Shown in pieces: positions 6,047 through 21,539 of a DNA stretch of 32,000 nt (the stretch's first letter is position 1; each line of letters begins with the position of its first letter). The notes under the pieces were generated by a model. The model had not been told where the DNA came from, did no database searches, and saw only the letters and a program-made list of their open reading frames with translations. The stretch spans positions 150,659 to 182,658 of the forward strand of contig DAOSXE010000001.1 of the NCBI GenBank assembly GCA_035380285.1, read 5' to 3'. Source of the stretch: a bacterium. Its GTDB lineage: Bacteria > Auribacterota > Erginobacteria > Erginobacterales > DAOSXE01. Position numbers and translations under genes: made by a program.

Positions 6047-7228
6047 ATGGACCCCGTGCGGCCGGTCAGGATTCTGCATCTCATCGACAGCCTTCCCCGC
6101 GAAGGGGCGGAGATGCTGCTCTTCGATCTGATTCAAAGAAGCGATCGGAGCCTGCTGGATTTTTCGGTGTGCTCGCTCACGGGCGGGGGAGGGGTGGAGA
6201 AGATGCTGGCGGAGCTGGGAGTCGCCGTTCATCTGCTGGGTCGCCGTTCGCCCGGGGACGTGTCGGCTTTCCGGCGTCTGTGCCGGATTATCCGCTCCGG
6301 CGGGGTCGAGATCGTGCATACGCATATTTTTTCCAGCCATCTGTGGGGGGCGGCGGCGGGCCGCCGATGCGGGGCGAAGGTGATGAGGACCGAGCATAAT
6401 ATGTCCGCCTGGAAGCGGGGTTGGCGGGCGCGGGCCGACCGGGTCTTGGCCCGGATGACCGACCGGGCGATCGCGGTCTCGGAACCGGTGCGGACGTCGC
6501 TGATCGAGGTCAGCGGTTTCGCCCCCGACCGGGTGGTCACGATCGCCAACGGTCTTAATCTGCGCCGGATCGGGGCCATGGCCGGGGAGACGAAGATACG
6601 CCAGGAATTGGGGCTGAGCCCGGCAAGTCTCGTGGCGGGGACTTCGGCCGCGCTTACGCCCAAAAAAGGGCATCGCTACCTGCTGGATGCGGCGGCCCTT
6701 TTACGAGCCGATTTCCCCGGCCTCCATTTCCTCCTGCTCGGGGAAGGGGAACTGCGGGAAGAGATCGCGGAGGGAATCCGCGCCCGGAATCTGCAGGGCA
6801 CCGTGCATCTTCTCGGTTCGCGCCCCGACGCTCTCGAGATCGTCGCCGGTCTCGACGTCTTTGTGATGAGTTCCGTGAGGGAAGGCCTTTCCATCGCCCT
6901 CCTGGAAGCGATGGCATTGGAAAGGCCGGTGGTGGTGACGGCCGTGGGGGGCGCGGTGGATGTCATCGAGGACGGGGTTTCGGGGGTGCTCGTTCCCGAA
7001 CGGGACGCGCGGGCCCTGGCCGCGGGGATAACCTCGGTCCTTTCCTCCCCGGCCCGGTCGGTTCGGATGGGGCGGCGCGCCCGGACCGCCGTCGAGGAAC
7101 GGTTCGACTTCGACCGGATGGTCCGCAGGTACGAAGAGGAATACCTGCGCCTGGTCCGCCCCCCCGGGAAGCGGTTGCCGGAAGAGGTCGGCTCGGGTAC
7201 CATGGCTTCGGGAAAAATCGAGCGATGA
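6047..7228 (+). CDS. Glycosyltransferase family 4-like; ATG at 6047 preferred
   Basis: 'ILHLIDSLPREGAEMLLFDLI...VLIVAGLDVFVMSSVREGLSIALLEAMALERPVVVTAVGG'-like GT4 architecture. Extension to 5996 overlaps the upstream gene. Confidence 0.87.
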   Translation: MDPVRPVRILHLIDSLPREGAEMLLFDLIQRSDRSLLDFSVCSLTGGGGVEKMLAELGVAVHLLGRRSPGDVSAFRRLCRIIRSGGVEIVHTHIFSSHLWGAAAGRRCGAKVMRTEHNMSAWKRGWRARADRVLARMTDRAIAVSEPVRTSLIEVSGFAPDRVVTIANGLNLRRIGAMAGETKIRQELGLSPASLVAGTSAALTPKKGHRYLLDAAALLRADFPGLHFLLLGEGELREEIAEGIRARNLQGTVHLLGSRPDALEIVAGLDVFVMSSVREGLSIALLEAMALERPVVVTAVGGAVDVIEDGVSGVLVPERDARALAAGITSVLSSPARSVRMGRRARTAVEERFDFDRMVRRYEEEYLRLVRPPGKRLPEEVGSGTMASGKIER

Positions 7229-8340
7229 GCGTCTGGAATTACTTCAAATACGGCCGGCGGCTTTTCTATAAACGCAACGCTTCGCCGCTGTACCTGGTTT
7301 TTTTCGTTACCGAGCGCTGCAACGCCCGTTGCCGCCACTGTCTTCTGGGGGGAATCCATCCCGGTCGCGACGAACTTACCCTGGAAGAGATCGAGCGGGT
7401 TTCCCGCTCGATGGACGATTTTCTTTTTCTGCTCCCCACCGGGGGGGAGCCGTTTCTTCGTTCCGACCTTCCCGAGATCGTGGAGGTGTTCTACCGCAAC
7501 AACCATATCCAGAACGTAGGCATTCCCACCAACGGCGGTCTGACGGAGAAAGTGGTGGGGGCGGTGGAAGAGATCCTGCGCCGCTGTCCGGGGCTGGATT
7601 TGATGGTGGATGTCTCCATCGACGGAATCGGCCCCGATCACGACGAGATCCGCCGGGTGCCCGGGCTCTTCGAAAAAGCCATGGAGACCTTCCGGCGCCT
7701 GAAGGAGATCGACGCCGCGCACCCCCGGTTCACGGCCAGCATAGAAACCACGGTTTCTTCCTTCAACGACGATAAACTGGAAGACATGTTCCGCTATTTC
7801 ACCGAGAAAGCCGGAGCGCAATCCATATTCACGCTCCTCTGCCGGGGCAAACCCATGGAGCCGGCCGCCAAATTTTTCGACATCGAACGCTACACCCGTT
7901 ACGCCGAAGCCCTGGAAGCGGGGATGATGCGGCGACGGCTCACCGGGTACGATAAGTTCCCCTTCGCCGACCTGATCAACGCCAAACGGATCGTGCGCCA
8001 CCGCCTCATCGGCAGAATCATCCGCGAGAACAGGATGGTCCTTCCCTGCTACGCGGGGATACTGGGCGCCGCGCTCTTCGCCAACGGCGACGTGCTCCCC
8101 TGCGAGCTGCATTCGGATCTGACCATGGGAAACGTCAGGGAAGCAGGATACGATTTCAAGCGGATCTGGTTCGGCGCCGCCGCCGTCCGCGCCCGGGAAA
8201 CCATCAGGAAACAGAAGTGTTTCTGCACCTATGAGTGTTTTCTCACCCTCAACATCCTCTTCAATCCCCGCATGTATCCGCAGCTCATCAAGGAATATCT
8301 GAAGGTGAAGTGGGCGAAGCTGTTCGGGAGGCGGCAGTGA
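7225..8340 (+). CDS. Radical SAM protein with SPASM-like C-terminal cysteines
   Basis: CxxxCxxC in 'VTERCNARCRHC', 'TGGEPFLR'. Later Cys set 'PCYAGILGAALFANGDVLPCE...KCFCTYECF'. Confidence 0.88.
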   Translation: MSVWNYFKYGRRLFYKRNASPLYLVFFVTERCNARCRHCLLGGIHPGRDELTLEEIERVSRSMDDFLFLLPTGGEPFLRSDLPEIVEVFYRNNHIQNVGIPTNGGLTEKVVGAVEEILRRCPGLDLMVDVSIDGIGPDHDEIRRVPGLFEKAMETFRRLKEIDAAHPRFTASIETTVSSFNDDKLEDMFRYFTEKAGAQSIFTLLCRGKPMEPAAKFFDIERYTRYAEALEAGMMRRRLTGYDKFPFADLINAKRIVRHRLIGRIIRENRMVLPCYAGILGAALFANGDVLPCELHSDLTMGNVREAGYDFKRIWFGAAAVRARETIRKQKCFCTYECFLTLNILFNPRMYPQLIKEYLKVKWAKLFGRRQ

Positions 8341-8672
8341 GCGGACGAGCCAAACCGCCGAAGCTTCATTATGTCCGCCCCCGGCGCTGGATCAGCGTTT
8401 CGTCGCCTCGGGCGGACGATATCGGCAAAAGGCCCCAACTGACCCGAAACTACATCTTTCTGGTGGTGGGGCTGGCGATCGTCGCCGGCGCCCTGATCGG
8501 ATGGGGTATCGGGATCGGGATCAACCGGGCCGTGCACATCAACACCCGCCTGGAGCCCGTCGGCGGTGATTCAGCGAAACCCGCGTCCGGCGCTTTCAGC
8601 GCTTATTCGGAGGCGCCCGAAATCGAACTGTCCGCCGGCGAACTCTCGCCTTCGCTGAAGGCGGTGCGCTGA
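8337..8672 (+). CDS. Small hypothetical single-TM protein
   Basis: GTG overlaps the radical SAM stop codon (GTGA). Clear TM segment 'NYIFLVVGLAIVAGALIGWGIGIGI'. The 3' end overlaps the convergent motB-like gene by 70 nt. Confidence 0.5.
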   Translation: MSGRAKPPKLHYVRPRRWISVSSPRADDIGKRPQLTRNYIFLVVGLAIVAGALIGWGIGIGINRAVHINTRLEPVGGDSAKPASGAFSAYSEAPEIELSAGELSPSLKAVR

Positions 8673-9430
8673 ACGATCTCGATCTCCACCCGCCGGTTCC
8701 GGGCGCGGCCTTCCGGGGTTTCGTTGGAGGCCACCGGTTTTTGGGAGCCGTAGCCGACGGCGCTGAACCGGGCCGGGTCGACCTGGTGGGAATCGATGAA
8801 ATAGCGCAGCACGGCCGCGGCCCGGGCGCTGGAAAGTTCCCAATTGGAAGGATACAGCGGCGTGTGAATGGGCGTGGAGTCGGTGTAGCCGCCGATCCGG
8901 ACCTGGTAGGGGTTGAGTTCGAAAAACGCCGCCAGCCGATCGAGCAGTTCCCGGGCCTGGGGCCGGAGAACGGCTTTGCCCGGAGAGAAGAGGAACGGGG
9001 CCAGGGGCACGATCGTCACCTTCCAGCGCGAAACCTCGACCCGAACGAACCGTTCCAGACCCTGGTCGACGACGTACTGCTTGATCTCCTCCCCGAGCTT
9101 CTGGAGTTCGTCCACCCGCTCCAGTTCCTTGAGCAGGGGCGACTCCAGTTTTTCCAGTTTGACGATCAGATCGGGGTCGGCTTCCCGGACCTCGACCAGA
9201 GGGACGTTGTCCGGGGCCTCGACATCGGCCTGGTCGGTCTGGATGAATTTCTTCCCCGCGATCCAGGCGGGGTTGATCTTGAGGGCGAGCATGGTGGCCA
9301 GGATGATGAAGAAGGTCATGAGCAGGGTGGCCATGTCCGAATAGGTGGTCATCCAATCCGGAGGCCAGGTCGCCTCCAGGTCCCCGGACCCGGTTTCCTG
9401 GGTTCCCCTGGTTCTTCGCCGCGCCGCCAT
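8603..9430 (-). CDS. MotB-like stator protein with OmpA-like peptidoglycan-binding domain (second paralogue)
   Basis: 'DWMTTYSDMATLLMTFFIILATM' (MotB TM with conserved Asp), then 'IGGYTDSTPIHTPLYPSNWELSSARAAAVLRYF...VGYGSQKPVASNETPEGRARNRRVEI'. Confidence 0.92.
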   Translation of the reverse strand: MAARRRTRGTQETGSGDLEATWPPDWMTTYSDMATLLMTFFIILATMLALKINPAWIAGKKFIQTDQADVEAPDNVPLVEVREADPDLIVKLEKLESPLLKELERVDELQKLGEEIKQYVVDQGLERFVRVEVSRWKVTIVPLAPFLFSPGKAVLRPQARELLDRLAAFFELNPYQVRIGGYTDSTPIHTPLYPSNWELSSARAAAVLRYFIDSHQVDPARFSAVGYGSQKPVASNETPEGRARNRRVEIEIVQRTAFSEGESSPADSSISGASE

Positions 9431-9432
9431 GG

Positions 9433-10272
9433 CTATCCCTTGTCCAGCATCTCCGAACTGATATACATGTGAAATTCGATCCGCCGGTTCCGGGCCCGGT
9501 GCTCGGGCGTGTCGTTGGGGAAACGGGGCAGGGAGTCGCCGTAGCCGCTGACCGAGATCAGGCTGGCGGGGATCCCGCCGTGCTCGATCAGATAGCGCCC
9601 GGCCGCCACCGCCCGGGCGCTGGAGAGCTCCCAGTTGCTGGGGAACCGGCGCCGGTGGCAGGGGTGGATGGGGACGGAGTCGGTGTGGCCCTCGATCCGG
9701 ATCGCGGCCCCGGTCCCCCGCAGCAGCGCGGCGATCTTATCGAGGATGGGGTAGAAAGCGGGCTGCAGCGTGTCCGATCCTTCTCGGAAAAGGATGTCGG
9801 TGGTGGTGGGGATGAGAACGACGTCCTCGGCGGTGACCTTGATTTCGATGTCCCGGGCGACGCCGGTTTGGGCCAGGGTCTCCTTGATCTCCTCGGCCTT
9901 CTCCTGGATGGGCCGGAGTTCGTCGACGGCCAACTCCTGTTGGGGGGAAATATTGCGGGCCAGATCGGCCACGCGTTTTTTGACCATCACCTGGCGGGGT
10001 TGATCTCCCTTTTTAATATCGGTCTGTTCTTCGGCGATTCCCCGGACGATCTTGCTCGATGATTCCTTGGCGATCTCGATCCATTCCTGGGGCAGCCCCA
10101 TCATGGTGTTGGCGTACCAGAGCACGAAGAAAGTGAGCAGGATCGTGGTCATATCCGAATAAGTGGTCATCCACTTCGGCGGCCACTCCCCCTCCAGCCC
10201 TCCTTCCTGAACGTCGGGCTCGATGCGGGTCCGCTCGACCAGGGGATCGCCGGCTTTCTTCTTTCTCGGCAA
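9433..10272 (-). CDS. motB: MotB-like stator protein with OmpA-like domain (first paralogue)
   Basis: 'KWMTTYSDMTTILLTFFVLWYANT' with conserved Asp. OmpA-like 'IEGHTDSVPIHPCHRRRFPSNWELSSARAVAAGRYL...RARNRRIEFHM'. Directly downstream of motA. Confidence 0.93.
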   Translation of the reverse strand: MPRKKKAGDPLVERTRIEPDVQEGGLEGEWPPKWMTTYSDMTTILLTFFVLWYANTMMGLPQEWIEIAKESSSKIVRGIAEEQTDIKKGDQPRQVMVKKRVADLARNISPQQELAVDELRPIQEKAEEIKETLAQTGVARDIEIKVTAEDVVLIPTTTDILFREGSDTLQPAFYPILDKIAALLRGTGAAIRIEGHTDSVPIHPCHRRRFPSNWELSSARAVAAGRYLIEHGGIPASLISVSGYGDSLPRFPNDTPEHRARNRRIEFHMYISSEMLDKG

Positions 10273-11028
10273 TCACTGCCTCCCGGCCAGGTAGGCCTTG
10301 AGTTTCTCCCGGACGATCTGGGAATTGTCCCCCGCCTGGATGGATGCGATGCCTTCGATGATGATCTCGCGGGTGAGGGCCATGTTGGTGTTGTAGACCC
10401 GGATTTTGCCGGCGATGGGCATACAGAAAAGCCCGGCCAAAACGATTCCGTAGAAGGTGGTCATCAGGGCCACGGACATGTTGGGGGCGATGGTCTCCAC
10501 GTCGGAGAGGGTTCTCAGCAGCAGGATCAGCCCGACCAGGGTCCCGACCATCCCGAAGAGGGGGGCGTAGACCGAGATGTCGCGCCAGAGCCGTTCGTCG
10601 GTGGAGATCTTCATGTGCAGGTAGTCGGAGACGGTCTCGAGGATCCCCCGGGTGACTTCGGGGTCGGTTCCGTCCGCCACCAGGTCGACGCCGATGTCGA
10701 GCAGGGGGTAGCGGCCGTTGGTGGAGAGCTCCCGGATGGCCATGAACCCTTCCCGGCGGGCCTTGACCGCCATGTCGACGATGATCTCGATCACGGACTC
10801 CGGGCTGAGCACCCGGGTGACCAGAGTGAAACGGAAAGCCTTGAGGCCGTCCACGATCTGGCGGATGCTGAAGTTGATAAGGATGGCGGCCGAGGTACCC
10901 CCGAAGACGATCAGGACCGACGGCCAGTTGACGAAGTACCCCACCATCTCCATGCCCCCCCTGAGGAAGATGGAGAAGAAGATAACGCAGAACCCGATGA
11001 TGAAGCCGATAATGGTCGTCAGTCGCAT
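10273..11028 (-). CDS. motA: Flagellar-type motor stator protein MotA
   Basis: 'FGGTSAAILINF', 'ARREGFMAI', 'YAPLFGMVGTLVGLILLLRTL', 'MTTFYGIVLAGLFCMPIAGKI' are canonical MotA features, including the conserved prolines. Confidence 0.95.
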   Translation of the reverse strand: MRLTTIIGFIIGFCVIFFSIFLRGGMEMVGYFVNWPSVLIVFGGTSAAILINFSIRQIVDGLKAFRFTLVTRVLSPESVIEIIVDMAVKARREGFMAIRELSTNGRYPLLDIGVDLVADGTDPEVTRGILETVSDYLHMKISTDERLWRDISVYAPLFGMVGTLVGLILLLRTLSDVETIAPNMSVALMTTFYGIVLAGLFCMPIAGKIRVYNTNMALTREIIIEGIASIQAGDNSQIVREKLKAYLAGRQ

Positions 11029-11037
11029 GGCCTGTTC

Positions 11038-11238
11038 CTATTCCTTGGGTTGCAGCGGTGCCGCGATCGAACGCTTGTAATCCTTCACTTTCCCGACGAT
11101 TTCGTCCACGCTTTCACGGGCGATGAACTGCTCGCCGGTGGTCAGGGTGATGATCGTATCCGGCCGGCCTTCCACCCGTTCGATGAAATCGGCGTTGAGA
11201 ACCATCTCCTGCCCGTTGAGCCTGGTCACCTTTATCAT
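11038..11238 (-). CDS. flbD: FlbD family protein
   Basis: 66 aa 'MIKVTRLNGQEMVLNADFIERVEGRPDTIITLTTGEQFIARESVDEIVGKVKDYKR' matches the FlbD pattern; position immediately 5' of motA is the classic flbD-motA-motB order. Confidence 0.92.
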   Translation of the reverse strand: MIKVTRLNGQEMVLNADFIERVEGRPDTIITLTTGEQFIARESVDEIVGKVKDYKRSIAAPLQPKE

Positions 11239-11253
11239 GAAATCCGGCCCCCG

Positions 11254-13338
11254 CTAAACCATCTCCTCCTGGAACCTGTGCACCGAAACCTGTCCCTCGC
11301 GTTCGAGCTTGCGGATGGTGGCGATGATCTCGTGCTGGGCCTCCATGGTCTTGCTGCTGAGCTGGCGGAGGATGTTCATGATCTCCTCCTGGGCTTCGTC
11401 GGCCCGCTTGCGGCTGATCGAACCCATCACTTCCAGATCCTCCTTGAGCATGGCCACCGCCCGCTCCGTCAGGCCGGCGAAAAACTTCTCCCGCACCTGC
11501 TCGGACGCCCCCCGCAGCGCCATCTTCAGGACGGTCCGGTCCACGGTCCGGAAGATATCCTCGATCACGTTCTGATCGACTTCCAGCATGGCTTCGTTGA
11601 ACGGCAGTTCCTTTCCTTCGCGCTCGATCTCGACCCGGCGCACGGTTTGGGTGTCTTCTTCGAACATTTCCCGGGCCCGGTCGGTCATGTTGCGCAGGAA
11701 CTTGGCTTTAACTTCGTCGGACGCATCGGAGAGCGAGTTGGCGATCATCTCCCGGGAGATGTTGTGGATAAGGGTTTCGATATCCTTGTCGTCCAGGGAT
11801 GAGATGTCCTCGAAGAGGAACATGCGTTTGCGGACCTCCTCGGCCAGGGTGGTATTCCGTTTCTGCATGTTCTCCAGAATGATCTTGGCCACCGCGTACC
11901 GGCTGGAACTGAGGATGTCGGCCAGAACCCGGTAGCCCATGACCGGGATATAATCTTTCAGCATCTTGATCTGTTTGAGCTTGCGTTCCAGGAAAGCCTT
12001 GATCTCCCCGGCCATGTCCTCCCCCTCGGTCAGAGAACTCATGGCCTGGGCCACCTCCAGCTGTTTTTCCTCCTCCAGCTTGCTCAGGGCATCGGCGGCG
12101 TCCTTGGGATCGACTTGGGAGAGAACCGCGGCGGCCAGTTTCGGTTCCTCGTCCATGATCAGGAGGTGGACTTCGTCGGGCGGCAGGGAGCGCAGGTACT
12201 TGAAGGGCTCGTCGAGGAGCGAGGCGTCGGGGAGCTTCTCCAGTTGCTGGGACATCAGATCTTCGATGTTGCCCAGGACCTCGACCACCTCGGCGCCGAA
12301 GCCGACTCCGGCGGCTCCCGGCGCCGCCGGTCCGGCCGCCTGCGCCGCCGGGGCCGCGGCCGCCGGTGCTCCCGTTCCGGGAGTCCCGGTGCCGGTGCCG
12401 CCGCCGGCGACCAGCTTGCGCTGTTCGTCGAGCATGTCGGAGAGAGTGTCCCGGATTTCGGAGAGCAGGGCGTCCGCTTCCTGGGGCCCGCGGGTGAGGG
12501 CGTCGCGGATCTCCCCCAGCAGCTCGTCGAAATTGGTCCCCTGGCCGCTCCGGTCGAGGGCGTCTCGGATCTCTTCCAGTATTTCTCCGTAATCCCCGCC
12601 GCCGGCGGCAGCCACCACCTGGCGGATTTCCTCCAGTTCCTGGCGCCGCCGTTTCTTCTTGTCTTCCGGGCTTTCCTCGTGCCCGCTCCCCCCCGCTTCG
12701 CCGCCCGCCCCCTGGGCCCCGCCGATGATCGCCGTTTCCGCGCGTTTCTGTTTCCGCAGGGGCAGGAATATGGCGGCGATCAGGATGAGCAGGCCCGCGA
12801 GGGCGATGAGGGCGTAGAGGACGTAGTTCTGTTGGGCCGCCGAGGGAGGAAGCGCCACTTCGGGCCACGGTTCGGGGACGACGGCGACGGTGTCGCCGCG
12901 GGCTTCGTTGATCCCGGCCCAGCGCCGGACGGCCGGTTCGATGGCTTCGATCTGTTCCTGGGGCAGGTTTTCGTCGACCTCGACGGTGATGTGGAGGCTG
13001 GAGATGGTGGGGGAGAAGTTATTGGCCGCCTGAACCAGTTTCTTTTCCTGGGCGGCGTCGACCGTCTTTACCCCGGATATCCGGGAAAGCCCCTGTATCC
13101 TCTGCAGGTTGCCGTTACCGGTGGGATCGCTGAGGGTGACGTCGATGGATACGATCGTTCTTCCCGGCCCCACCAGGGTGTCGAGTTTGGGCTGTAGGTT
13201 GGCTTGGATGGCCGCTTCGGTCTGGGCTTCGGCGCTGCTCTGGGCCACTTGGGCCGCACCGGTCCCGGCCAGGAGGAGGAAGACGGTGGCCAGGACGGCG
13301 CTCGCTCTAACCGGTCCGCGGGAGAGGCTGCCGGGCAT
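11254..13338 (-). CDS. Composite FliF(RBM3/C-terminal TM)-FliG-like protein with signal peptide and duplicated FliG_C-like module
   Basis: FliF-like 'LDTLVGPGRTIVSIDVTLS...LHITVEVDENLPQEQIEAIEPAVRRWAGINEARGDTVAVV' then TM 'YVLYALIALAGLLILIAAIFL'. FliG_M-like 'FKYLRSLPPDEVHLLIMDEEPKLAAAVLSQVDPKDAADALSKLEEEKQLEVAQAM'. FliG_C-like 'TTLAEEVRKRMFLFEDISSLDDKDIETLI...EVKAKFLRNMTDRAREMFEED' and second 'VIEDIFRTVDRTVLKMALRGASEQVREKFFAGLTERAVAMLKEDLEVMG'. Confidence 0.85.
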   Translation of the reverse strand: MPGSLSRGPVRASAVLATVFLLLAGTGAAQVAQSSAEAQTEAAIQANLQPKLDTLVGPGRTIVSIDVTLSDPTGNGNLQRIQGLSRISGVKTVDAAQEKKLVQAANNFSPTISSLHITVEVDENLPQEQIEAIEPAVRRWAGINEARGDTVAVVPEPWPEVALPPSAAQQNYVLYALIALAGLLILIAAIFLPLRKQKRAETAIIGGAQGAGGEAGGSGHEESPEDKKKRRRQELEEIRQVVAAAGGGDYGEILEEIRDALDRSGQGTNFDELLGEIRDALTRGPQEADALLSEIRDTLSDMLDEQRKLVAGGGTGTGTPGTGAPAAAAPAAQAAGPAAPGAAGVGFGAEVVEVLGNIEDLMSQQLEKLPDASLLDEPFKYLRSLPPDEVHLLIMDEEPKLAAAVLSQVDPKDAADALSKLEEEKQLEVAQAMSSLTEGEDMAGEIKAFLERKLKQIKMLKDYIPVMGYRVLADILSSSRYAVAKIILENMQKRNTTLAEEVRKRMFLFEDISSLDDKDIETLIHNISREMIANSLSDASDEVKAKFLRNMTDRAREMFEEDTQTVRRVEIEREGKELPFNEAMLEVDQNVIEDIFRTVDRTVLKMALRGASEQVREKFFAGLTERAVAMLKEDLEVMGSISRKRADEAQEEIMNILRQLSSKTMEAQHEIIATIRKLEREGQVSVHRFQEEMV

Positions 13339-13342
13339 GGTC

Positions 13343-14119
13343 TTAATCCTCCGTAGGTTCGGTTCCGGCCGATCCGGCCGGTTCCGGGACCGCGGCGGGC
13401 CCCCCCACCGTCTCCAGCCCGGCGTAGCGGGGGACGATCAGCACCATTCCCGGGTAGATCAGGTCCGGTTCGAAGATCTGGTCGCGATTGGCGTGGTAGA
13501 GAAGGAGCCAACGGTAGGGGTTGCCGTAAACTTCCGGCTTGCCCGCGATGGTCCAGAGGCACTCGCCCTCGCCGACCAGGTAGGTGTCCATGCCCAGAAG
13601 CTGCGCGGAAACCGGTTCGCCCGCGGCGGTTACCGTGATCCGCGGACCGGTCTCGGAACCGCTCGCCTCGGCCTCGCTGAGCTGCAGCTCCGCCTGGCGG
13701 CGCTTGATTTCTTCGTCTTCGGCCTTGATCGTCAATTCCTCGACCTGGTTTCTCAAGGCCTCGACTTCTTTTTTCAGGGCGTCGGCGGCGGCTTGTTCGT
13801 CCCGCAGGGCCTGGAGAAGCTCTTCCTCGCTGGGGGCGGGAGACTCCGCGGTTCTTCGAGACCCGGCTTCGGGGTAGTAGCGTTCGAGGTCGCGCATCCG
13901 GGGGTTGCGGAAGATGAACCCCTCGTTGCCCCAGAGGACGTCGTCGGGTCCCCCGATGGTCAGCGGCCGGGGGCTGAACGGGTAGTCCATGGGGCGGAAG
14001 GTGCGGCCGCCCGGTTTCCAGACGCTCTCCAGGTCGTAACGGTCCGCGATTTCGGCCGTGTCCGCAAGGAGGTTTCCCGCCGCCCCCGCGGCCAGAATGA
14101 AGATGAACAGTCGCTTCAT
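13343..14119 (-). CDS. Exported coiled-coil protein with C-terminal LysM domain
   Basis: Signal peptide 'MKRLFIFILAAGAAGNLLA', coiled-coil Glu/Lys-rich middle, LysM 'YLVGEGECLWTIAGKPEVYGNPYRWLLLYHANRDQIFEPDLIYPGMVLIVP'. AAGGAG Shine-Dalgarno 6 nt upstream of ATG. Confidence 0.88.
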   Translation of the reverse strand: MKRLFIFILAAGAAGNLLADTAEIADRYDLESVWKPGGRTFRPMDYPFSPRPLTIGGPDDVLWGNEGFIFRNPRMRDLERYYPEAGSRRTAESPAPSEEELLQALRDEQAAADALKKEVEALRNQVEELTIKAEDEEIKRRQAELQLSEAEASGSETGPRITVTAAGEPVSAQLLGMDTYLVGEGECLWTIAGKPEVYGNPYRWLLLYHANRDQIFEPDLIYPGMVLIVPRYAGLETVGGPAAVPEPAGSAGTEPTED

Positions 14120-14156
14120 CAAGGGCTCCTTAGATTGAAGTAATTGCTGAAATCAA

Positions 14157-14283: not shown

Positions 14284-15315
14284 ATGGAAAGAAAAAGGCT
14301 GGCAAATCGCCTGCTCACCGGGATTTGGATTTTCCTGTTCCTCCTGGTGGTGGGACTTTTTTTGGGGAGCCGGTTGACGGAGGTGAAGGGGTGGCTGCGG
14401 GGTTTGGTCCGCGAGCCGCAAGCCGTCATGAACTCCTTCCAGCCCCGTTCGATGGCGGGTTTCCGATGTTCCTTCGAGCAGCCCGGGGATACCGGGATCT
14501 GGGTCACCCACCAGACGGCGCTGGCGGTGACCGACCTGGATCTGCCCGGCGCCCGGCACTGGGCCCGGGTCACGTATTACCCCGGCACCGCTCCGGGGCT
14601 TCTCTGGACCGACGAATCCATGGGCGTGATGGATTGGCGGGGGGTGAAGGCGTTGGAATTCGACGCTTATAACCCCAACGGGTGGCCCGTGGATTTGAAG
14701 ATTAAAATCAAGGACCAGTCCGGGAACTCCTTCCAAAGAGCCCAGAAACTGGCGCCGGGCCGAACTACTTCGATATCAGTACCGCTGTCGGCTGCATCCG
14801 GCCAACTCAACCTGGGGCGAGTCAGCTATCTGAATCTTTTCTTGTGGGGCCCGGGAAGCGAAACGGTTCTCTTCTTTTCCAATTTCAGCCTCCCCGGGGT
14901 CGGCGAGACCCCACCGGCTTCGAACCGGCAGCCGGGGCTTAAATTTCTTGGGTTGGAATTTCCCCGGATTCTCCGCCGGGGGGAGATAGTTGAGGCTTCT
15001 TTCTTCTTCATGCCGGAGGCGGCGTTGCCGGAGGGCTGCCTGCTCTTGGTCCGTCTCAAGAATCGAGCCGGCATCACTCCCTTGGGCGAGGTTTCCCCGC
15101 CGCTGCCCACCTCGGCCTGGGCGCCGGGGCGGATGGCCCGGGTCGGTCCGTTCCCCCTGGAAATCCCGATGACCGCCTCCCCCGGCTTGTACGAACTGGA
15201 AGCGGTCATGGCCCGTCCCTTGGGGGAGAGCGGGGAAGGGGGGGTTGTTTTTCTGCCCTACGCCAACGCCGACCTGCCCGGGCATTCGGTGGCCGAGGTG
15301 GAAGTGATCGAGTGA
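14284..15315 (+). CDS. Membrane-anchored surface/periplasmic protein with CBM-like and Ig-like beta-sandwich regions
   Basis: N-terminal TM 'LLTGIWIFLFLLVVGLFLG'. 'MDWRGVKALEFDAYNPNGWPVDLKIKIKDQSGNSFQRAQKLAPGRTTSISVPL' resembles CBM-type beta-sandwich. C-terminal 'LPEGCLLLVRLKNRAG...TASPGLYELEAVM' resembles the neighbouring protein. Confidence 0.65.
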   Translation: MERKRLANRLLTGIWIFLFLLVVGLFLGSRLTEVKGWLRGLVREPQAVMNSFQPRSMAGFRCSFEQPGDTGIWVTHQTALAVTDLDLPGARHWARVTYYPGTAPGLLWTDESMGVMDWRGVKALEFDAYNPNGWPVDLKIKIKDQSGNSFQRAQKLAPGRTTSISVPLSAASGQLNLGRVSYLNLFLWGPGSETVLFFSNFSLPGVGETPPASNRQPGLKFLGLEFPRILRRGEIVEASFFFMPEAALPEGCLLLVRLKNRAGITPLGEVSPPLPTSAWAPGRMARVGPFPLEIPMTASPGLYELEAVMARPLGESGEGGVVFLPYANADLPGHSVAEVEVIE

Positions 15316-15359
15316 GATTTCGAAACGACAAGCAGCGACTGTAACCGGAGAAAGTGGAG

Positions 15360-16823
15360 ATGCATAAAAAATTGATGGGTTTAGCGATCTTCCTGGTATT
15401 GACTGGGATGGGTAGGAGCGAAACCGTGCTCAGGGAAGGCCCCGCCCGGCTGAAATTCATCAGTTTTTCCCTGCAGACCGAGATTCCCCAGGGGACGTTC
15501 GTCAAGGCCAGCGCTTTTTTCCAGCTTACGGCTCCGGTCGACGGCGACGAGAAGGTGTTTTTCCATCTGGCTCCGGCCGGCCAGAAAAACCCGGTTCTCA
15601 ACGCCGATTTCTATCCCAAATATCCCACTTCGCTTTGGGCGGTGGGCCAGACGGTGGAAGCCGGCCCGATCGGCCTGACCGTTCCCGGCACGATCGCCCC
15701 CGGAGAGTACGATCTCAGGACCGGGTTGATGGAGATCGACCGCACCGGGCAGGAAACCCGGTATATCCGGGAAAAGTTCACCAATCCCGAGATCAAGGAT
15801 TTCACGGTGGGTCGGGTGCGGGTGGTTCCTCCGGCCGACGGAGCCGGGGGAGGGCCGGGGGAAGGGGAGCAGGCTCCCGTCGCCGACCTGGACATAGTCA
15901 GTTTCGAGAAAGACAACGACGTCCTCCTCTGGCAACCGGTGGGGGCGCGGGTCGAGCGCTACGACCTCGACGAGCTCCCGGTGGCCGCGGTCGCCATCGT
16001 CCCCGATCCGTCGGTCCCTTATCCGGGGGTGGAGTTGAACAATTTTTTCCAGATATTCCCCCAATATGCCGACTGGTCGCTGTACGACGCTCTCCAGGTA
16101 GGTTTGTCGGTCCCCGGCCAATCTCCCCTGCGCAGGTTGTTCATACAGATCAGCGACGCTCAAGGACGGATGTATAAAAAGGAAGTCCGGTTGAAACCGG
16201 GGGAGTCGGCTCAGGAACTGCTGGATATGGTGACGCTGGGGGGGGTAATCAATATCTCCCGGATAGCGCGGGTGAAAATCTTTTCGGTCGCCCTCGACCG
16301 GGAAGCCACCTTTTACGTCACCGGGTTGCGGCTGCTGGCGCGGGGGATGCCGACCAGCGAGCCCACGGTCGAGTTCGTGCGCCTGGAATGCCCGGCCAGC
16401 GTCAAGCGGGGGGAAGTCTTCTTCGTCAAGGTGTTCTTTTCCCTGAAGGCTCCGGTCTTCGCCCCCTGCAAGCTGTTCGTCCATATCTACCGGGAAAACG
16501 ACCTCCAGGGAGCGGTGAACGGGGACAACAATCTGGTGGTCCCGGTACGGCAGTGGCCGCTGAAGCAGGAAGTGGGCGCGTTGTCGTCGCCGGTGATGAT
16601 CCGCCCCGACGCCCCTCCCGGGCGATATCTGGTCCGGGCCGGTCTCTATACCCCCATCCAAAGCGACGGGGTCGGGTATATCAAGACCGCGACCTGGGAC
16701 GACGGCCGGGGGCAGGAGGTCGTCAACATCGAGCAGCCGGTGGTCGGGGAAGATTATATCAAGCAGCCCTATACCGATCCCAAGATCGAGGATTGGGTGG
16801 TGGGCTCGATCCAGGTCGAATAA
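15360..16823 (+). CDS. Exported multi-domain beta-sandwich protein with two copies of an Ig-like module
   Basis: Signal peptide 'KKLMGLAIFLVLTGMGRSE'. Modules ending 'EKFTNPEIKDFTVGRVRV' and 'KQPYTDPKIEDWVVGSIQV', each preceded by 'GEYDLRTGLM' or 'GRYLVRAGLY'. ATG at 15360 with GGAG 9 nt upstream preferred to GTG 15354. Confidence 0.7.
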   Translation: MHKKLMGLAIFLVLTGMGRSETVLREGPARLKFISFSLQTEIPQGTFVKASAFFQLTAPVDGDEKVFFHLAPAGQKNPVLNADFYPKYPTSLWAVGQTVEAGPIGLTVPGTIAPGEYDLRTGLMEIDRTGQETRYIREKFTNPEIKDFTVGRVRVVPPADGAGGGPGEGEQAPVADLDIVSFEKDNDVLLWQPVGARVERYDLDELPVAAVAIVPDPSVPYPGVELNNFFQIFPQYADWSLYDALQVGLSVPGQSPLRRLFIQISDAQGRMYKKEVRLKPGESAQELLDMVTLGGVINISRIARVKIFSVALDREATFYVTGLRLLARGMPTSEPTVEFVRLECPASVKRGEVFFVKVFFSLKAPVFAPCKLFVHIYRENDLQGAVNGDNNLVVPVRQWPLKQEVGALSSPVMIRPDAPPGRYLVRAGLYTPIQSDGVGYIKTATWDDGRGQEVVNIEQPVVGEDYIKQPYTDPKIEDWVVGSIQVE

Positions 16824-16850: not shown

Positions 16851-17702
16851 ATGAGCAGAGTCCGCAGCAGGTTGGCCGTCCTGGGCGTGGTCGGTCTGGC
16901 CGGCCTATGCGCCGTGGCCGGTTTTCTTTTGTTCGACGCCCTGGTCGTCGAACCCAACTGGATCACCGTGCGGCGCGTGCGCATCGAAAACCCGGACCTG
17001 GCCGCCGCCCTGGAGGGGGTCCGGGTCGCCCAGATCTCCGACCTCCACCTGCGGGGGAGCTTGGGGTTCCGGGAACGGTCCCTGATCGCCCGCTTGAACC
17101 GGTTGCGCCCCGATCTGATCCTCATTACCGGAGATCTGGTCGAAGGACCGGGGCAGGGCCGCTTGGCCGTGGAATTCATCCGCCAACTCAAGCCCGGGCT
17201 CTGGTCCTACGGAGTTCTGGGTAACGCCGACCGCAACGCCTTTTCCGTATCCCAGCGGAATGCCCTGCGCCGGGCCGGCCTGGAGATGATCGGGGAAAGG
17301 GCGTTGCGGATGCAGCCGGGAGCGGCTCCGGCCGAATTTTATCTGGCCGGGATCGATTTCCCCGGCTACGGGCAACCGGTGCCCGCCGACCGGATCCGGG
17401 AAATCGTCTCCGGGGTGCCTCCGGGAAAACCCATAATTTTTCTGGCTTATTCCCCCGACGCGGCGGAAGCGCTGGCGGATGAAGGCGTGGACCTGGTGCT
17501 TTCCGGGGATTCCCACGGCGGGCAGGTCGGCCTTCCCGGTTGGGGGAGTCTGTTCGAGGAGTTCGGGAGGTCGCGGTTCGTCCGGGGTCTCTACCGGTTG
17601 AAAAACACCGTTCTCTACGTCAATCGGGGGATCGCCACCAAGACGGTGCCGATCCGCTTTCTCTGCCCCCCCGAAATCACCCTCTTCGAGTTTACCCGAT
17701 GA
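16851..17702 (+). CDS. Calcineurin-like metallophosphoesterase (YkuE/YaeI-like), N-terminal TM
   Basis: 'VRVAQISDLHLRG', 'DLILITGDLVEG', 'YGVLGNADR', 'LVLSGDSHGGQVGLP'. Confidence 0.88.
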   Translation: MSRVRSRLAVLGVVGLAGLCAVAGFLLFDALVVEPNWITVRRVRIENPDLAAALEGVRVAQISDLHLRGSLGFRERSLIARLNRLRPDLILITGDLVEGPGQGRLAVEFIRQLKPGLWSYGVLGNADRNAFSVSQRNALRRAGLEMIGERALRMQPGAAPAEFYLAGIDFPGYGQPVPADRIREIVSGVPPGKPIIFLAYSPDAAEALADEGVDLVLSGDSHGGQVGLPGWGSLFEEFGRSRFVRGLYRLKNTVLYVNRGIATKTVPIRFLCPPEITLFEFTR

Positions 17703-18553
17703 AAGCCGTTCTTGTCGGGCCGCGGAAATTGCTGGGATGGATCGCCCCTTTCCTGCCCCTGCTGGTACTGGCGTGGCCGGCCTGGCGGGCGCTGACCTGG
17801 ATGAACCGCCGGTTCTTCGAACAGGAATCCTACTACTCTCACGGCTGGCTGATTCCGGCCGCCATCGCCTGGCTCATCTATCTGCGCCGCTCCCGGATCG
17901 CCGCCGTGGGCCGGCAGGCCTCTTTTTTCGGGGCCTTCGCGTATGGGTTGGGGGTGTCGATCGCGGCCTCGGGCATCGTCATCGATATCCGATTTCTCGT
18001 CGCCTGGGGGCTGGTTCTGGCCGGGATCGGGTGGTACTGGTCGTGGGCAGGTGCCGCCCGGGCCCGGATCGCCCTTCCTCCTCTCCTCCTGCTCCTGGGC
18101 ATGATCCCCCTCCCCGGAGTCTGGCTGTTGGCGTTGACCGCTCACCTCAAATCCTTAGCCGCCGCCGGGGGGGTTGTCGTCGCCGGATTGTTGGGGGTGC
18201 AAGCGGTGTTGGATGGTTCCACCGTGATCGTCGCCGGTGCCCCTCCCGGGCCGAGCCTGGTGATCGGCGACCCCTGCAGCGGGCTGCGCTCGCTCTTGGT
18301 TTTTGCCTCCCTGGGCTTGTTTTTCGCTCTTCAGGAAGAATCCGGACCGCTGCGCAAGGTTCTCCTGGCGGGGCTGGCGTTGTCGATGGCGCCGCTCAGC
18401 AATCTTCTGCGGGTGGTGTTTCTGATAGTGGTCCGCCGGGTGATCGGGCCGGTGGCTCTCGAAGGTCCGATCCATCTCCTGGCCGGCGCCGGGGCTTTCG
18501 GGTTCTGCTTTTTTCTCTATCTGCTTGCGGTCGGGAGATGGTTCCGCCGATGA
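17699..18553 (+). CDS. Exosortase family protein
   Basis: Multi-TM with catalytic triad motifs 'GDPCSGLRSLLVFASLGLFFAL', 'PLSNLLRVVFLIVV', 'GPIHLLAGAGAFGF'. 'SYYSHGWLIP' near the N-terminus. ATGA overlap with the phosphoesterase. Confidence 0.92.
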   Translation: MKAVLVGPRKLLGWIAPFLPLLVLAWPAWRALTWMNRRFFEQESYYSHGWLIPAAIAWLIYLRRSRIAAVGRQASFFGAFAYGLGVSIAASGIVIDIRFLVAWGLVLAGIGWYWSWAGAARARIALPPLLLLLGMIPLPGVWLLALTAHLKSLAAAGGVVVAGLLGVQAVLDGSTVIVAGAPPGPSLVIGDPCSGLRSLLVFASLGLFFALQEESGPLRKVLLAGLALSMAPLSNLLRVVFLIVVRRVIGPVALEGPIHLLAGAGAFGFCFFLYLLAVGRWFRR

Positions 18554-19197
18554 AAAAACGGGGTGTGATCGTCGTCGTCGAAACCGTTGCGGCCGTTTTG
18601 ATCCTGGGGTTGGCGGCGACGATTTCGAACCGGCGTCACGAGCCGGGCTCGTATCCGGTCATCGATCTCGAGAAGATTCCGCTGGAAATCTCCGGCTGGA
18701 AGGGAAAGCGCGTTTCCCTGGGGCCCGACCATCCCGCCCGGGTCGGAGGAGTCGCCGCGGTGTATATCAGCTATCTCAAGGGGGACAGACATCTCGATCT
18801 CTACGTGGTGGAGGGCGCCCCCGGGACGTTTTCGCTCCACCCTCCCGAATATTGCCTGATCGGCGGGGCCAGCGACGAGACCGCGCGGTCGCGGATCGGC
18901 GTTCCTTACGGGGAGGGGAAGGAGATCGAGGTCAACCGCTTCGAGGCCGAAAGGATGCGGCGCCGGAGCCTGGTGTATTACTGGTACGCGGACGGTAACG
19001 GTTTTACTCCGGATTATCTTCTTCCCCAGGTGGCCAACCTGGCGAAGCGCCTGGCGGGGCGAGAGCGAGCCTTCTGCCTGGTCCGGCTTTCCTGGGACGG
19101 CGACGACGGGCTCGACTACGCGGAAGAATCCTTCCGGCTCTTTATCCGGGAAGCGCTGCCCGCGATCGCTCCGATCTTCTCCGGCGGCGGGAAATGA
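18550..19197 (+). CDS. EpsI-family protein (exosortase-associated)
   Basis: 'IPLEISGWKGKRVSL', 'FSLHPPEYCLIGGA', 'LVYYWYADG...'; directly coupled to the exosortase. Confidence 0.85.
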   Translation: MKKRGVIVVVETVAAVLILGLAATISNRRHEPGSYPVIDLEKIPLEISGWKGKRVSLGPDHPARVGGVAAVYISYLKGDRHLDLYVVEGAPGTFSLHPPEYCLIGGASDETARSRIGVPYGEGKEIEVNRFEAERMRRRSLVYYWYADGNGFTPDYLLPQVANLAKRLAGRERAFCLVRLSWDGDDGLDYAEESFRLFIREALPAIAPIFSGGGK

Positions 19198-21451: not shown

Positions 21452-21473
21452 GAAAACCTCCTTGATGCCGAAA

Positions 21474-21510: not shown

Positions 21511-21539
21511 ACGGTTTCCCGAAGGGCGAGGCGGATGAA

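What the first reader, a model, noticed from the sequence alone, without database searches (positions are those of the whole stretch)
8603..14119. Six-gene motor-like operon without axial flagellar genes: a candidate minimal, non-flagellar rotary or force-generating machine
Seen: one tightly packed minus-strand operon, in transcription order LysM/coiled-coil exported protein, composite FliF-FliG-like protein, FlbD, MotA, MotB, second MotB. Gaps are 2-15 nt or less. Flanking genes are polysaccharide-related; no rod, hook, filament, export or FliM/FliN gene appears in the window. Known: FliG is the rotor face on which MotA exerts torque, FliF anchors FliG, and flbD-motA-motB order occurs in spirochete and Firmicute flagellar operons. 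Myxococcus AglRQS shows MotAB-type motors can work without a flagellum. Inference: stator plus membrane-anchored rotor in one cassette could form a stand-alone torque machine, perhaps for gliding, envelope or polysaccharide handling. I do not know of a described system with this composition.
Basis: partly seen in the sequence, partly recalled or inferred. Interest (0 to 1): 0.87.

Follow-up and report, generated by a model that had tools for sequence, protein, structure and literature searches.

The report
Flagellum-less rotor–stator motor in polysaccharide locus
Six tightly packed genes encode the torque-making core of a flagellar motor (a fused mini FliF–FliG rotor, FlbD, MotA and two MotBs) with no rod, hook, filament, export or switch parts; the block sits in exopolysaccharide gene clusters in three uncultured PVC phyla, so it looks like an undescribed non-flagellar use of the motor.

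Summary
Six minus-strand genes (8603-14122, gaps 0-15 nt) encode an exported coiled-coil/LysM protein, a 694-aa composite rotor protein, FlbD, a MotA/PomA-type stator subunit and two MotB paralogues.

The composite protein is more specific than "FliF-FliG-like". It has a signal peptide or first membrane helix, a single FliF RBM3 (S-ring) domain with a shortened collar insertion, one membrane helix, a helical/disordered linker, FliG_M, and FliG_C with an inserted partial duplicate. It has no FliF RBM1/2 and no detectable FliG_N, and the FliM-binding EHPQ motif is lost.

Residues needed for torque are conserved: the FliG torque-helix charges, the MotA loop and prolines, and the MotB aspartate in both paralogues. 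All genes show purifying selection.

The cassette recurs in about 25 loci from Ca. Auribacterota, Omnitrophota and Planctomycetia MAGs. It is always beside exopolysaccharide genes and never beside fli/flg/flh genes. One carrier, Ca. Erginobacter occultus, is published as lacking flagella.

Best reading: a filament-less, proton-driven rotor–stator module tied to envelope polysaccharide production. The output and actual rotation are inferred. I found no description in the searched literature. The source genome could not be checked for flagellar genes.

The parts
13343..14122 (-). Exported protein: signal peptide, coiled coil, C-terminal Kbp/YgaU-type LysM domain. First gene of the operon; its stop lies 4 nt before the rotor gene's start.
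   Evidence: NCBIfam LysM 2e-10; N-terminal hydrophobic segment; PDB 6ve2 LysM protein 5e-05; family alignment; LysM block ...PYxWLLLYHANRDQIxxPDLIYPGMVLxVPR conserved in all loci, including L005.
11254..13338 (-). Composite rotor protein (694 aa): mini-FliF (RBM3 + TM) fused to FliG middle and C-terminal domains.
12871..13236 (-). Periplasmic FliF RBM3 (S-ring)-like domain, aa 35-156. Order is alpha-beta-(about 40-aa insertion)-beta-alpha-beta, and it ends in the FliF-like RGDT motif.
   Evidence: Pfam YscJ_FliF_C above cut-off. A family profile hits Salmonella FliF residues 233-271 and 367-453 (E 0.002) and a 144-aa FliF chain over its full length (E 0.012). AF2 secondary structure, pLDDT about 80. 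Foldseek hits FliF S-ring/RBM3 structures with TMt about 0.5.
12748..12840 (-). Transmembrane helix (aa about 167-197), equivalent to FliF TM2.
   Evidence: Hydropathy, AF2 helix 167-202, conserved in the family.
12286..12669 (-). Cytoplasmic linker: helices carrying three 'LLxEIRDxL' repeats (aa 224-311), then a Gly/Ala/Pro-rich disordered stretch (aa 313-351). It occupies the place of the FliF C-terminus and FliG_N.
   Evidence: Profile-profile comparison gave no credible FliG_N match.
11959..12210 (-). FliG middle domain (aa 377-460). The EHPQ FliM-binding motif is replaced by DEEPK and is not conserved in the family.
11623..11874 (-). ARM_C, the MFLFED hinge, and the first, truncated FliG_C unit (aa 489-572). 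This unit is an inserted partial duplicate with its own R...EED helix.
   Evidence: two FliG_C stretches; aa 527-597 unaligned to canonical FliG; the insertion is present in only part of the family.
11299..11601 (-). Second, complete FliG_C unit (aa 580-680) with the torque helix TERAVAMLKEDLEV.
   Evidence: aligns to T. maritima FliG_C; 1qc7, rmsd 1.7 A; R and ED invariant in all 14 diverse members.
11038..11238 (-). FlbD/SwrD-family small protein.
   Evidence: Pfam FlbD 5e-27; conserved in every cassette.
10273..11028 (-). MotA/PomA-type stator A subunit.
   Evidence: 1e-41 to solved MotA/PomA; ARREG loop, both prolines and TTFYG conserved.
9433..10272 (-). MotB paralogue 1: plug/TM with invariant Asp, plus an OmpA-like peptidoglycan-binding domain.
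8603..9430 (-). MotB paralogue 2, 36% identical to paralogue 1, with the same features.
16851..17702 (+). Membrane-anchored YaeI/LpxG-like metallophosphoesterase. It is the most constant neighbour of the cassette; whether it belongs to the machine is uncertain.
14284..16823 (+). Two divergently transcribed proteins with no family match (343 aa, membrane-anchored; 489 aa, secreted), built of beta-sandwich/CBM-like modules. They neighbour the cassette in most but not all loci; whether they belong to the machine is uncertain.
   Evidence: AF2 pLDDT 85; CBM11, agarase and xanthanase modules; absent in L093-L095.

Best explanation
The operon encodes a self-contained rotor–stator module derived from the flagellar motor, and it works without a flagellum.

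The 694-aa protein is predicted to assemble into an inner-membrane ring. Its periplasmic face would be made of a single FliF RBM3 (S-ring) domain and its cytoplasmic face of FliG_M/FliG_C. The two are joined covalently at 1:1, so the usual FliF C-terminus–FliG_N interface is not needed. MotA, probably as a pentamer, surrounds a MotB dimer. Because two MotB paralogues are always kept together, that dimer is probably a MotB1–MotB2 heterodimer. The stator would conduct protons through the conserved MotB aspartates and push on the conserved FliG torque helix. FlbD/SwrD would act as a stator-associated accessory.

With no FliM/FliN and a lost FliM-binding motif, rotation should be unidirectional and unswitched. 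With no RBM1/2, export gate, rod, hook or filament, the mechanical output must stay in the envelope.

The cassette is embedded in Wzx/Wzy-type exopolysaccharide loci across three phyla. Its tightest partner is an exported coiled-coil/LysM (glycan-binding) protein. The most likely output is therefore mechanical work on, or control of, synthesis, export or surface organisation of an amino-sugar exopolysaccharide.

Shown: domain homologies, residue conservation, synteny and purifying selection. Inferred: ring formation, rotation, the MotB heterodimer and the link to polysaccharide handling.
For: Domain identities.

Architecture without RBM1/2, FliG_N or EHPQ.

Conserved functional residues: the MotA ARREG loop and two prolines, and the MotB Asp in both paralogues, in 15-18 orthologues. 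The FliG torque-helix R...(K/R)ED is invariant in 14 diverse members.

Purifying selection: dN/dS is 0.13-0.50 for every cassette gene in two pairs.

Old, orthologous MotB1/MotB2 pairs are kept in all complete loci.

Block conservation at 30-37% identity, next to Bac_transf, deacetylase, metallophosphoesterase, Wzy, Wza/Wzz, GTs, GH123 and CBM proteins. In L008 and L056 the two MotB genes lie on the opposite strand from the rest of the cassette; in L008 they sit co-directionally beside the CBM-protein/GH123/GT2 genes, whereas no such genes were detected next to the pair in L056.

No fli/flg/flh gene was seen in the window or in any family locus.

Carriers are Ca. Auribacterota/PVC, Omnitrophota and Planctomycetia MAGs. 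One is Ca. Erginobacter occultus MAG_3300035698_653. The paper describing it states that none of the Ace Lake Auribacterota MAGs encodes flagella (PMC9324843).

An exhaustive profile search finds only about 10 clusters with this architecture before ordinary 335-aa FliGs begin.
Against: - No experiment or structure shows a ring, rotation or any link to polysaccharide.
- The whole genome of the window's organism could not be inspected. Related Auribacterota (Ca. Auribacter fodinae) and most Planctomycetia do have flagella, so coexistence with a flagellum is possible.
- The AF2 model of the composite protein is only moderate (mean pLDDT 60), and the FliF match rests on E-values of 0.002-0.01 plus one Pfam hit just above cut-off.
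- Synteny within one superphylum can partly reflect inheritance rather than function.
- A peptidoglycan-bound LysM partner would hinder rather than help rotation if it were fixed to the ring.
- The CBM-type neighbours are missing in some loci.
- One distant member (L005) has no adjacent stator genes.
Confidence: 0.6

Rival explanations
1. Sensor or regulator rather than a working motor. The rotor–stator pair is kept as a proton-motive-force, envelope-stress or load sensor. Its engagement state would control exopolysaccharide synthesis, for example through c-di-GMP signalling, much as the Caulobacter flagellar motor is reported to trigger holdfast production (my own recollection, not checked here).
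For: In the Omnitrophota-type loci L004 and L017, a histidine kinase and a response-regulator diguanylate cyclase sit directly upstream of the cassette. L020 has a GAF–HD_5 protein. The stator-less variant L005 lies beside a hybrid kinase and a response regulator. No obvious mechanical load or output protein is encoded.
Against: The Auribacterota loci, including the window, have no signalling gene next to the cassette. No PilZ, GGDEF or other signalling domain is fused to any cassette protein. Full conservation of the ion-conducting and torque residues is what a working motor needs, although a sensor could need them too.
Confidence: 0.17
2. Surface-motility (gliding-type) motor. The module powers movement of envelope adhesins or slime along the cell, as AglRQS–Glt does in Myxococcus, with the neighbouring polysaccharide serving as slime.
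For: There is precedent for MotAB-family motors with one A and two B subunits driving gliding and rotating a spore-coat polysaccharide (PMC3858216). The cassette also has one MotA and two MotBs and lies in polysaccharide loci.
Against: No Glt/Nfs-like, adhesin or outer-membrane track genes were recognised in the window or in related loci. The stator is MotA/PomA-type, not TolQ/R-type. A fixed FliG ring is a rotary element, not a trafficking one.
Confidence: 0.1
3. Ordinary flagellar parts. The operon simply supplies the MS-ring/FliG and stator for a flagellum whose other genes lie elsewhere in the genome.
For: All domains are flagellar in origin, and flbD-motA-motB is a known flagellar gene order. 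Full-length natural FliF–FliG fusions exist in other bacteria. The source genome could not be inspected, and some relatives are flagellated.
Against: The protein lacks RBM1/2, most of the collar, FliG_N and the FliM-binding motif. It therefore cannot house an export gate, hold a rod or carry a C-ring in the known way. The cassette is never next to flagellar genes in about 25 loci. It is present in a MAG reported to lack flagella.
Confidence: 0.08
4. Decaying relic of a lost flagellum with no current function.
For: Partial flagellar gene sets are common in non-motile genomes (PMC12199754).
Against: The reading frames are intact and tightly coupled. dN/dS is 0.13-0.50. Functional residues are invariant across three phyla. 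Family-specific innovations (the fusion, the FliG_C duplication, the paired MotBs) are conserved.
Confidence: 0.03

Closest known systems
Rotor–stator core of the bacterial flagellar motor (FliF MS-ring, FliG, MotA5MotB2, with FlbD/SwrD in spirochaetes and Firmicutes)
   Same: There is clear sequence homology of every cassette protein except the LysM protein. The FliG torque-helix charges, the MFxF hinge, the MotA cytoplasmic loop and prolines, and the MotB Asp and OmpA-like domain are all conserved. The flbD-motA-motB order is the same.
   Different: FliF is reduced to one RBM3 domain with a short insertion. There is no RBM1/2, no detectable FliG_N and no EHPQ motif. No FliM/FliN, export apparatus, rod, hook, filament or L/P rings are encoded nearby. 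There are two obligatorily paired MotBs and a partial duplication of FliG_C. The context is exopolysaccharide genes.
FliF–FliG fusion proteins: engineered in Salmonella and Vibrio (PDB 8z4d/8z4g; PMC10941966, PMC11481574), and natural full-length fusions in the protein library (P0078, P0091, P0159)
   Same: FliF and FliG are linked covalently 1:1. The engineered fusions form MS/S-rings according to the titles and abstracts of those papers and the PDB entries.
   Different: Those fusions carry complete FliF (YscJ_FliF plus YscJ_FliF_C) and complete FliG (N, M, C) and belong to flagella. The window protein keeps only RBM3 + TM and FliG_M + FliG_C.
Myxococcus AglRQS motor with Glt (gliding) or Nfs (spore-coat polysaccharide) complexes
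   Same: It is a proton-driven MotAB-superfamily motor working without a flagellum, with one A-type and two B-type subunits. In the Nfs form it moves a surface polysaccharide (PMC3858216).
   Different: AglRQS is TolQ/R-like and has no FliG-type rotor ring (my own knowledge). Its output goes through Glt/Nfs envelope proteins, which were not seen here. The stator here is MotA/PomA-type.
Other 5:2 ion-driven motors (ExbBD–TonB, TolQR, GldLM, ZorAB)
   Same: They share the MotA_ExbB-type channel with a B-subunit dimer carrying a TM Asp.
   Different: None uses FliG or a FliF-like ring (my own knowledge). The PADLOC scan found no ZorA, ZorC or ZorD, only generic MotB/OmpA similarity.

Membership tests
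Ordinary bacterial flagellar motor | FliG C-terminal domain with charged torque helix | tested here: met
   FliG_C 4e-40. R...(K/R)ED is invariant in the family. The domain aligns to T. maritima FliG_C.
Ordinary bacterial flagellar motor | MotA/MotB stator with conserved MotB Asp, MotA prolines and charged loop | tested here: met
Ordinary bacterial flagellar motor | Full-length FliF (RBM1, RBM2, RBM3 with beta-collar) | tested here: not met
   Only the end of YscJ_FliF_C matches, and there is no YscJ_FliF hit. The family profile aligns to the two halves of Salmonella RBM3 only. The periplasmic part is about 130 aa.
Ordinary bacterial flagellar motor | FliG N-terminal domain binding the FliF C-terminus | tested here: inconclusive
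   No FliG_N Pfam hit. The NCBIfam fliG match starts at model position 97. hhalign extends over the linker but without convincing similarity.
Ordinary bacterial flagellar motor | Switch complex: FliM/FliN genes and the FliG_M EHPQ(R) FliM-binding motif | tested here: not met
   No FliM/FliN in the window or in family loci. The motif reads DEEPK here and is variable across the family.
Ordinary bacterial flagellar motor | Export gate, rod, hook and filament genes in the same genome | not testable with these tools
   These genes are absent from the 32-kb window and from +/-10 kb around about 25 related loci. One carrier MAG is reported to lack flagella. The source genome itself could not be read.
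MotAB/ExbBD/TolQR superfamily of 5:2 ion-driven motors | A subunit with MotA_ExbB channel domain; B subunit with a single TM carrying Asp | tested here: met
   The 5:2 stoichiometry itself was not tested.
Agl–Glt/Nfs gliding and spore-coat machinery | TolQ/TolR-type AglR/Q/S and Glt/Nfs envelope proteins | tested here: not met
   The MotA scores 188 bits to PomA but only 17 bits to TolQ. No recognisable Glt/Nfs-type genes are among the neighbours.
Zorya anti-phage system | ZorA with long tail, ZorB, ZorC/ZorD | tested here: not met
   PADLOC gives no ZorA, ZorC or ZorD hit, only generic ZorB/MotB similarity.
Full-length natural FliF–FliG fusion proteins | YscJ_FliF + YscJ_FliF_C + FliG_N + FliG_M + FliG_C in one chain | tested here: not met
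   Compare (P0078, P0091, P0159) (window protein).
Exosortase (EpsH/EpsI) exopolysaccharide locus (context, not the cassette) | EpsH exosortase with EpsI, priming transferase and glycosyltransferases | tested here: met
   EpsH 1e-34. Exosortase NCBIfam hits are below equivalog cut-offs, but the signature model is passed. An EpsI homologue lies at 18655-19167. Exosortase is present only in the Auribacterota-type loci, not in L004, L009 or L017.

The most novel reading that the evidence does not exclude
A new class of envelope nanomachine: a filament-less, unidirectional rotary motor. It would be built from a one-polypeptide S-ring/FliG rotor and heteromeric MotA–MotB1–MotB2 stators, and would mechanically drive secretion, spooling or surface arrangement of an exopolysaccharide in Auribacterota, Omnitrophota and Planctomycetota. 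That would make it the first non-flagellar use of the FliG rotor.
Probability: 0.3. Interest if true: 0.95.

Novelty: new variant of a known kind. Interest (0 to 1): 0.8.

Why it matters
FliG-based rotation is known only from flagella. All other MotAB-family motors (Tol, Ton, Gld, Agl, Zor) use different partners. A conserved module that keeps only rotor ring, stator and FlbD would have three consequences:
1. It would show that the torque-generating core can be reused on its own.
2. It would offer a natural minimal rotor (about 700 aa, 1:1 FliF–FliG, no switch) for structural and biophysical work on torque generation.
3. It would give a concrete case for the open question of what "half a motor" is for. 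That question was raised for the 11% of non-motile genomes that keep rotor proteins without filament proteins (PMC12199754).

It may also reveal an energised step in exopolysaccharide or capsule production in poorly known PVC phyla. Databases currently label these proteins "flagellar motor switch protein FliG", which would wrongly suggest motility in genome-based trait predictions.

Tried and rejected
- **Zorya or another defence system:** rejected. PADLOC gives only generic MotB similarity.
- **Structured RNA in the window:** none at Rfam gathering thresholds.
- **Promoters and terminators:** the scan found no sigma-70-type site, and terminator-like sites were at background frequency. By eye there is a TTGACA–18 nt–TATAAA match upstream of the first gene, but it fails the scan's rule, so I give it no weight.
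- **FliG_N remnant in the linker:** profile-profile comparison was inconclusive.
- **Reaching the source contig:** a 100% identical neighbour protein (P0177) is annotated 'MAG TPA ... PLZ73_00755 [bacterium]' on a 242,885-bp contig. The exact-match look-up found no record, so the genome around the window could not be extended.
- **Supplementary tables of PMC9324843** (flagellar gene lists per MAG) are not held.
- **Second homologue search** with a diverse alignment returned the same Auribacterota set and no cultured host.
- **Family and solved-structure sequence searches** for the two unknown neighbours gave nothing. Only fold comparison of the 489-aa protein was informative.
- **Literature:** nine completed searches, plus one rejected for a term-format error, found no description of this cassette.
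Full report

Yes. Six minus-strand ORFs occupy 8603-14122 with gaps of 4, 15, 9, 0 and 2 nt. Their codon-position GC is typical of genes in this 62% GC window (GC3 0.82-0.91).

Family matches in transcription order:
- A 259-aa exported protein with a hydrophobic N-terminus, a coiled coil and a C-terminal LysM-type domain. Pfam is only marginal (0.068). NCBIfam gives 2e-10 for a LysM peptidoglycan-binding protein, and a solved LysM protein matches at 5e-05.
- A 694-aa protein with YscJ_FliF_C (27.2 bits, cut-off 23.8), FliG_M (8e-11) and FliG_C (4e-40, two stretches).
- FlbD (5e-27).
- A MotA whose best curated matches are PomA/MotP/MotA (1e-55 to 1e-39). It matches solved MotA/PomA at 1e-41 over its full length.
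- Two MotB proteins, each with MotB_plug and OmpA domains.

The flanks are polysaccharide genes:
- Upstream: three GT4 glycosyltransferases, a GFO/IDH oxidoreductase, a hexapeptide acetyltransferase, a deacetylase and a radical SAM/SPASM enzyme.
- Downstream: two unknown proteins, a YaeI/LpxG-like phosphoesterase, exosortase EpsH with an EpsI homologue, a Bac_transf priming transferase with a coiled-coil partner, GT2, a flippase-like protein and RmlA/B/D.

No other flagellar gene is in the 32 kb.

**2. Anatomy of the composite protein**

The AF2 model, built from 28 homologues, has mean pLDDT 60 with structured parts at 70-87. It shows:
- an N-terminal hydrophobic helix (a signal peptide or first membrane helix);
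- a periplasmic alpha-beta-(insertion)-beta-alpha-beta domain (aa 35-156);
- one membrane helix (aa 167-197);
- four cytoplasmic helices carrying three 'LLxEIRDxL' repeats;
- a Gly/Ala/Pro-rich disordered stretch;
- an all-helical FliG-like region.

A profile of the N-terminal 200 residues from 14 diverse family members hits Salmonella FliF at E 0.002. It aligns to residues 233-271 and 367-453, the two halves of RBM3 that flank the beta-collar. It also hits a 144-aa FliF chain over its whole length at E 0.012, and it shares FliF's RGDTL motif just before the membrane helix. Foldseek on the model returns FliG MC structures (E about 1e-7) and then FliF S-ring/RBM3 structures (TM-score to target about 0.5), ahead of injectisome PrgK. 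The 'FliF-like' part is therefore specifically RBM3 plus TM2, with the about 110-aa collar insertion cut to about 40 aa. RBM1/2 are absent.

On the FliG side, profile-profile alignment to 73 ordinary FliGs covers FliG_M, ARM_C, the MFLFED hinge and the C-terminal six-helix unit. It leaves aa 527-597 unaligned. That segment is a partial tandem duplicate of FliG_C with its own 'R...EED' helix. It is present in the Auribacterota proteins and three distant relatives and absent in four others. No FliG_N is detectable. The EHPQ motif of FliG_M that contacts FliM is DEEPK here and varies freely in the family.

**3. Are the parts likely to work?**

Conserved residues across 15-18 orthologous cassettes:
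- MotA keeps the A(R/K)(R/K)EG cytoplasmic loop, both conserved prolines and the TTFYG motif.
- Both MotB paralogues keep the channel aspartate without exception.
- In the complete FliG_C unit, the torque-helix arginine and the acidic pair are invariant in all 14 diverse sequences.

dN/dS is 0.13-0.50 for every cassette gene in two independent pairs. The two MotBs are 36% identical to each other, and each has its own orthologue in every complete locus. The duplication is therefore old and both copies are retained. The simplest reading is a MotB1–MotB2 heterodimer inside one MotA ring, but this is inference.

**4. Distribution and context**

A word-indexed search found 27 close relatives, all 686-710 aa and 49-70% identical. 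Those that carry names are labelled 'PVC group bacterium', 'Candidatus Auribacterota bacterium' or 'Candidatus Erginobacter occultus'. An exhaustive HMMER scan of 1.84 billion cluster representatives found only about ten clusters with this architecture (560-700 aa, down to 29% identity) before ordinary 335-aa FliGs begin.

Scans of one genome per species, and of JGI metagenomes, added loci from Omnitrophota and Planctomycetia MAGs. In about 25 loci the order LysM–rotor–FlbD–MotA–MotB1–MotB2 is conserved, even at 30-37% rotor identity.

Neighbours are consistently exopolysaccharide genes:
- the membrane-anchored metallophosphoesterase, which is nearly always present;
- a polysaccharide deacetylase;
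- Bac_transf with its coiled-coil partner;
- Wzy, Wza/Wzz/tyrosine-kinase-like genes (L009), GH123 and glycosyltransferases;
- two unknown proteins, in most loci.

The 489-aa unknown folds with high confidence (pLDDT 85) into three beta-sandwiches. The central one resembles CBM11 and the carbohydrate-binding modules of agarases and a xanthanase.

In L008 and L056 the MotB pair lies on the opposite strand from the rest of the cassette. In L008 it sits co-directionally beside the CBM-protein/GH123/GT2 genes. In L056 no such genes were detected next to the pair. In L004 and L017 a histidine kinase and a response-regulator diguanylate cyclase lie immediately upstream.

Exosortase is specific to the Auribacterota-type loci. 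No fli, flg or flh gene appears in any of these loci. One distant member (L005) keeps the LysM–rotor pair but has no adjacent stator.

**5. Flagella elsewhere?**

A neighbour protein is 100% identical to a 'MAG TPA ... [bacterium]' protein on a 243-kb contig, but the contig could not be fetched.

Indirect evidence points against a flagellar role:
- One carrier is Ca. Erginobacter occultus MAG_3300035698_653. [quoted passage not shown] Auribacter fodinae (PMC9324843).
- The protein's architecture argues the same way. Without RBM1/2 there is no seat for the export gate, and the collar that holds the rod is mostly gone.
- The FliM-binding motif is lost.

**6. Mechanism proposed**

Shown: homology, conserved residues, selection and synteny. 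Inferred: everything below.

The composite protein would form an S-ring-like ring in the inner membrane, with a covalently attached FliG ring beneath it. MotA–MotB1–MotB2 units anchored to peptidoglycan would conduct protons and turn the ring through the conserved torque helix. FlbD/SwrD is a torque-related factor that forms hexameric rings and is predicted, though not confirmed, to bind MotA (PMC13232269). It would act as an accessory here. Without a switch complex, rotation would be unidirectional.

The output must stay in the envelope. The exported coiled-coil/LysM protein is the tightest partner: its gene is nearly contiguous with the rotor gene, and the pair persists even in the stator-less variant. 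It is the best candidate for coupling the ring to a glycan, either peptidoglycan or the N-acetylated amino-sugar polymer implied by the neighbouring WbpB/WbpD-like (my own reading of the GFO/IDH oxidoreductase and hexapeptide acetyltransferase hits), deacetylase and Rml genes.

I put 0.6 on 'functional non-flagellar rotor–stator module tied to exopolysaccharide'. A specific mechanical role in polymer export or arrangement gets much less (about 0.3).

Rivals:
- sensor or regulator of exopolysaccharide synthesis (0.17);
- gliding-type motor (0.10);
- ordinary flagellar parts (0.08);
- relic (0.03).

**7. Comparison with known systems**

The cassette works like, and descends from, the flagellar rotor–stator. 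It fails the membership tests for an ordinary flagellar motor: full FliF, a switch complex and axial parts.
- It differs from engineered and natural FliF–FliG fusions, which are full length.
- It resembles Myxococcus AglRQS–Nfs in being a flagellum-independent motor with one A and two B subunits that acts on a polysaccharide coat (PMC3858216). Its stator, however, is MotA/PomA-type, and it has a FliG ring.
- It is not Zorya.

**8. Novelty**

Nine completed full-text searches found no description of this cassette. [quoted passage not shown] It does not identify a system (PMC12199754). Databases call these proteins 'flagellar motor switch protein FliG' or 'FliG C-terminal domain-containing protein'.

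I rate it a new variant of a known kind, with high interest (0.8). It would become categorically new if a mechanical role in polysaccharide handling were shown.

Noticed in passing
window 11389-11758 (aa 527-597 of the composite protein): There is a partial tandem duplication of the FliG C-terminal unit, giving two torque-helix-like segments per chain. It is present in Auribacterota and three distant relatives (degenerate in P0030) and absent in four others. What two such helices per subunit would do is unexplained.
   Followed up: partly
proteins P0078, P0091, P0159, P0037, P0098, P0111, P0155; loci L032, L034, L036 and others: The protein library contains natural full-length FliF–FliG fusions, and also FliM–FliG and FliN–FliG fusions. 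In many Solirubrobacterales genomes the tblastn match spans query residues about 52/112-660. That suggests fused or same-frame fliF–fliG there.
   Followed up: partly
L005 499-2181 with the upstream gene at 3-494: This is a distant family member (29% identity, single FliG_C). It keeps the LysM–rotor gene pair but has no FlbD/MotA/MotB next to it. It lies beside a hybrid histidine kinase and a response regulator.
   Followed up: partly
L004 6494-9160; L017 4125-6898; L020 1482-2672: In Omnitrophota-type loci, a histidine kinase plus a response-regulator diguanylate cyclase sit directly upstream of the cassette. A Planctomycetia locus has a GAF–HD_5 protein nearby. Both are possible c-di-GMP links.
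   Followed up: partly
window 8235-8672 (+): A small ORF with one predicted membrane helix converges on, and overlaps, the 3' end of the second motB. A roughly 100-aa gene is called at the same position in related loci. Those copies are similar to each other, but none matches the window's ORF at E<=1e-3.
   Followed up: partly
window 14284-15315 and 15354-16823 (+): These two proteins have no family match and appear to share repeated beta-sandwich modules. The 489-aa one has a CBM11-like central domain. They neighbour the cassette in most loci but are missing in L093-L095.
   Followed up: partly
window 20609-21583 (-): This membrane-anchored coiled-coil protein is always paired with the Bac_transf priming transferase. 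It has a weak, sub-threshold FlgT_C hit (E 0.002) in its C-terminal beta-rich domain.
   Followed up: no
window 7225-8340 (+): A radical SAM/SPASM enzyme lies inside the glycosyltransferase cluster, convergent with the cassette. It is 72% identical in L011, and L004 has a B12-binding radical SAM enzyme instead. This is an unusual member of a polysaccharide locus.
   Followed up: no
window 17540-19167 (+): Exosortase EpsH is followed by an EpsI homologue (33% identity to the L001 EpsI). In L002 and L010 the two appear to lie in one long ORF. No PEP-CTERM substrate was looked for.
   Followed up: partly
window 27847-29166 and 30241-31551 (+): Two phosphofructokinase-family genes flank a cytidylyltransferase-like gene. 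This is in line with the two PFK types reported for Ace Lake Auribacterota (PMC9324843).
   Followed up: no
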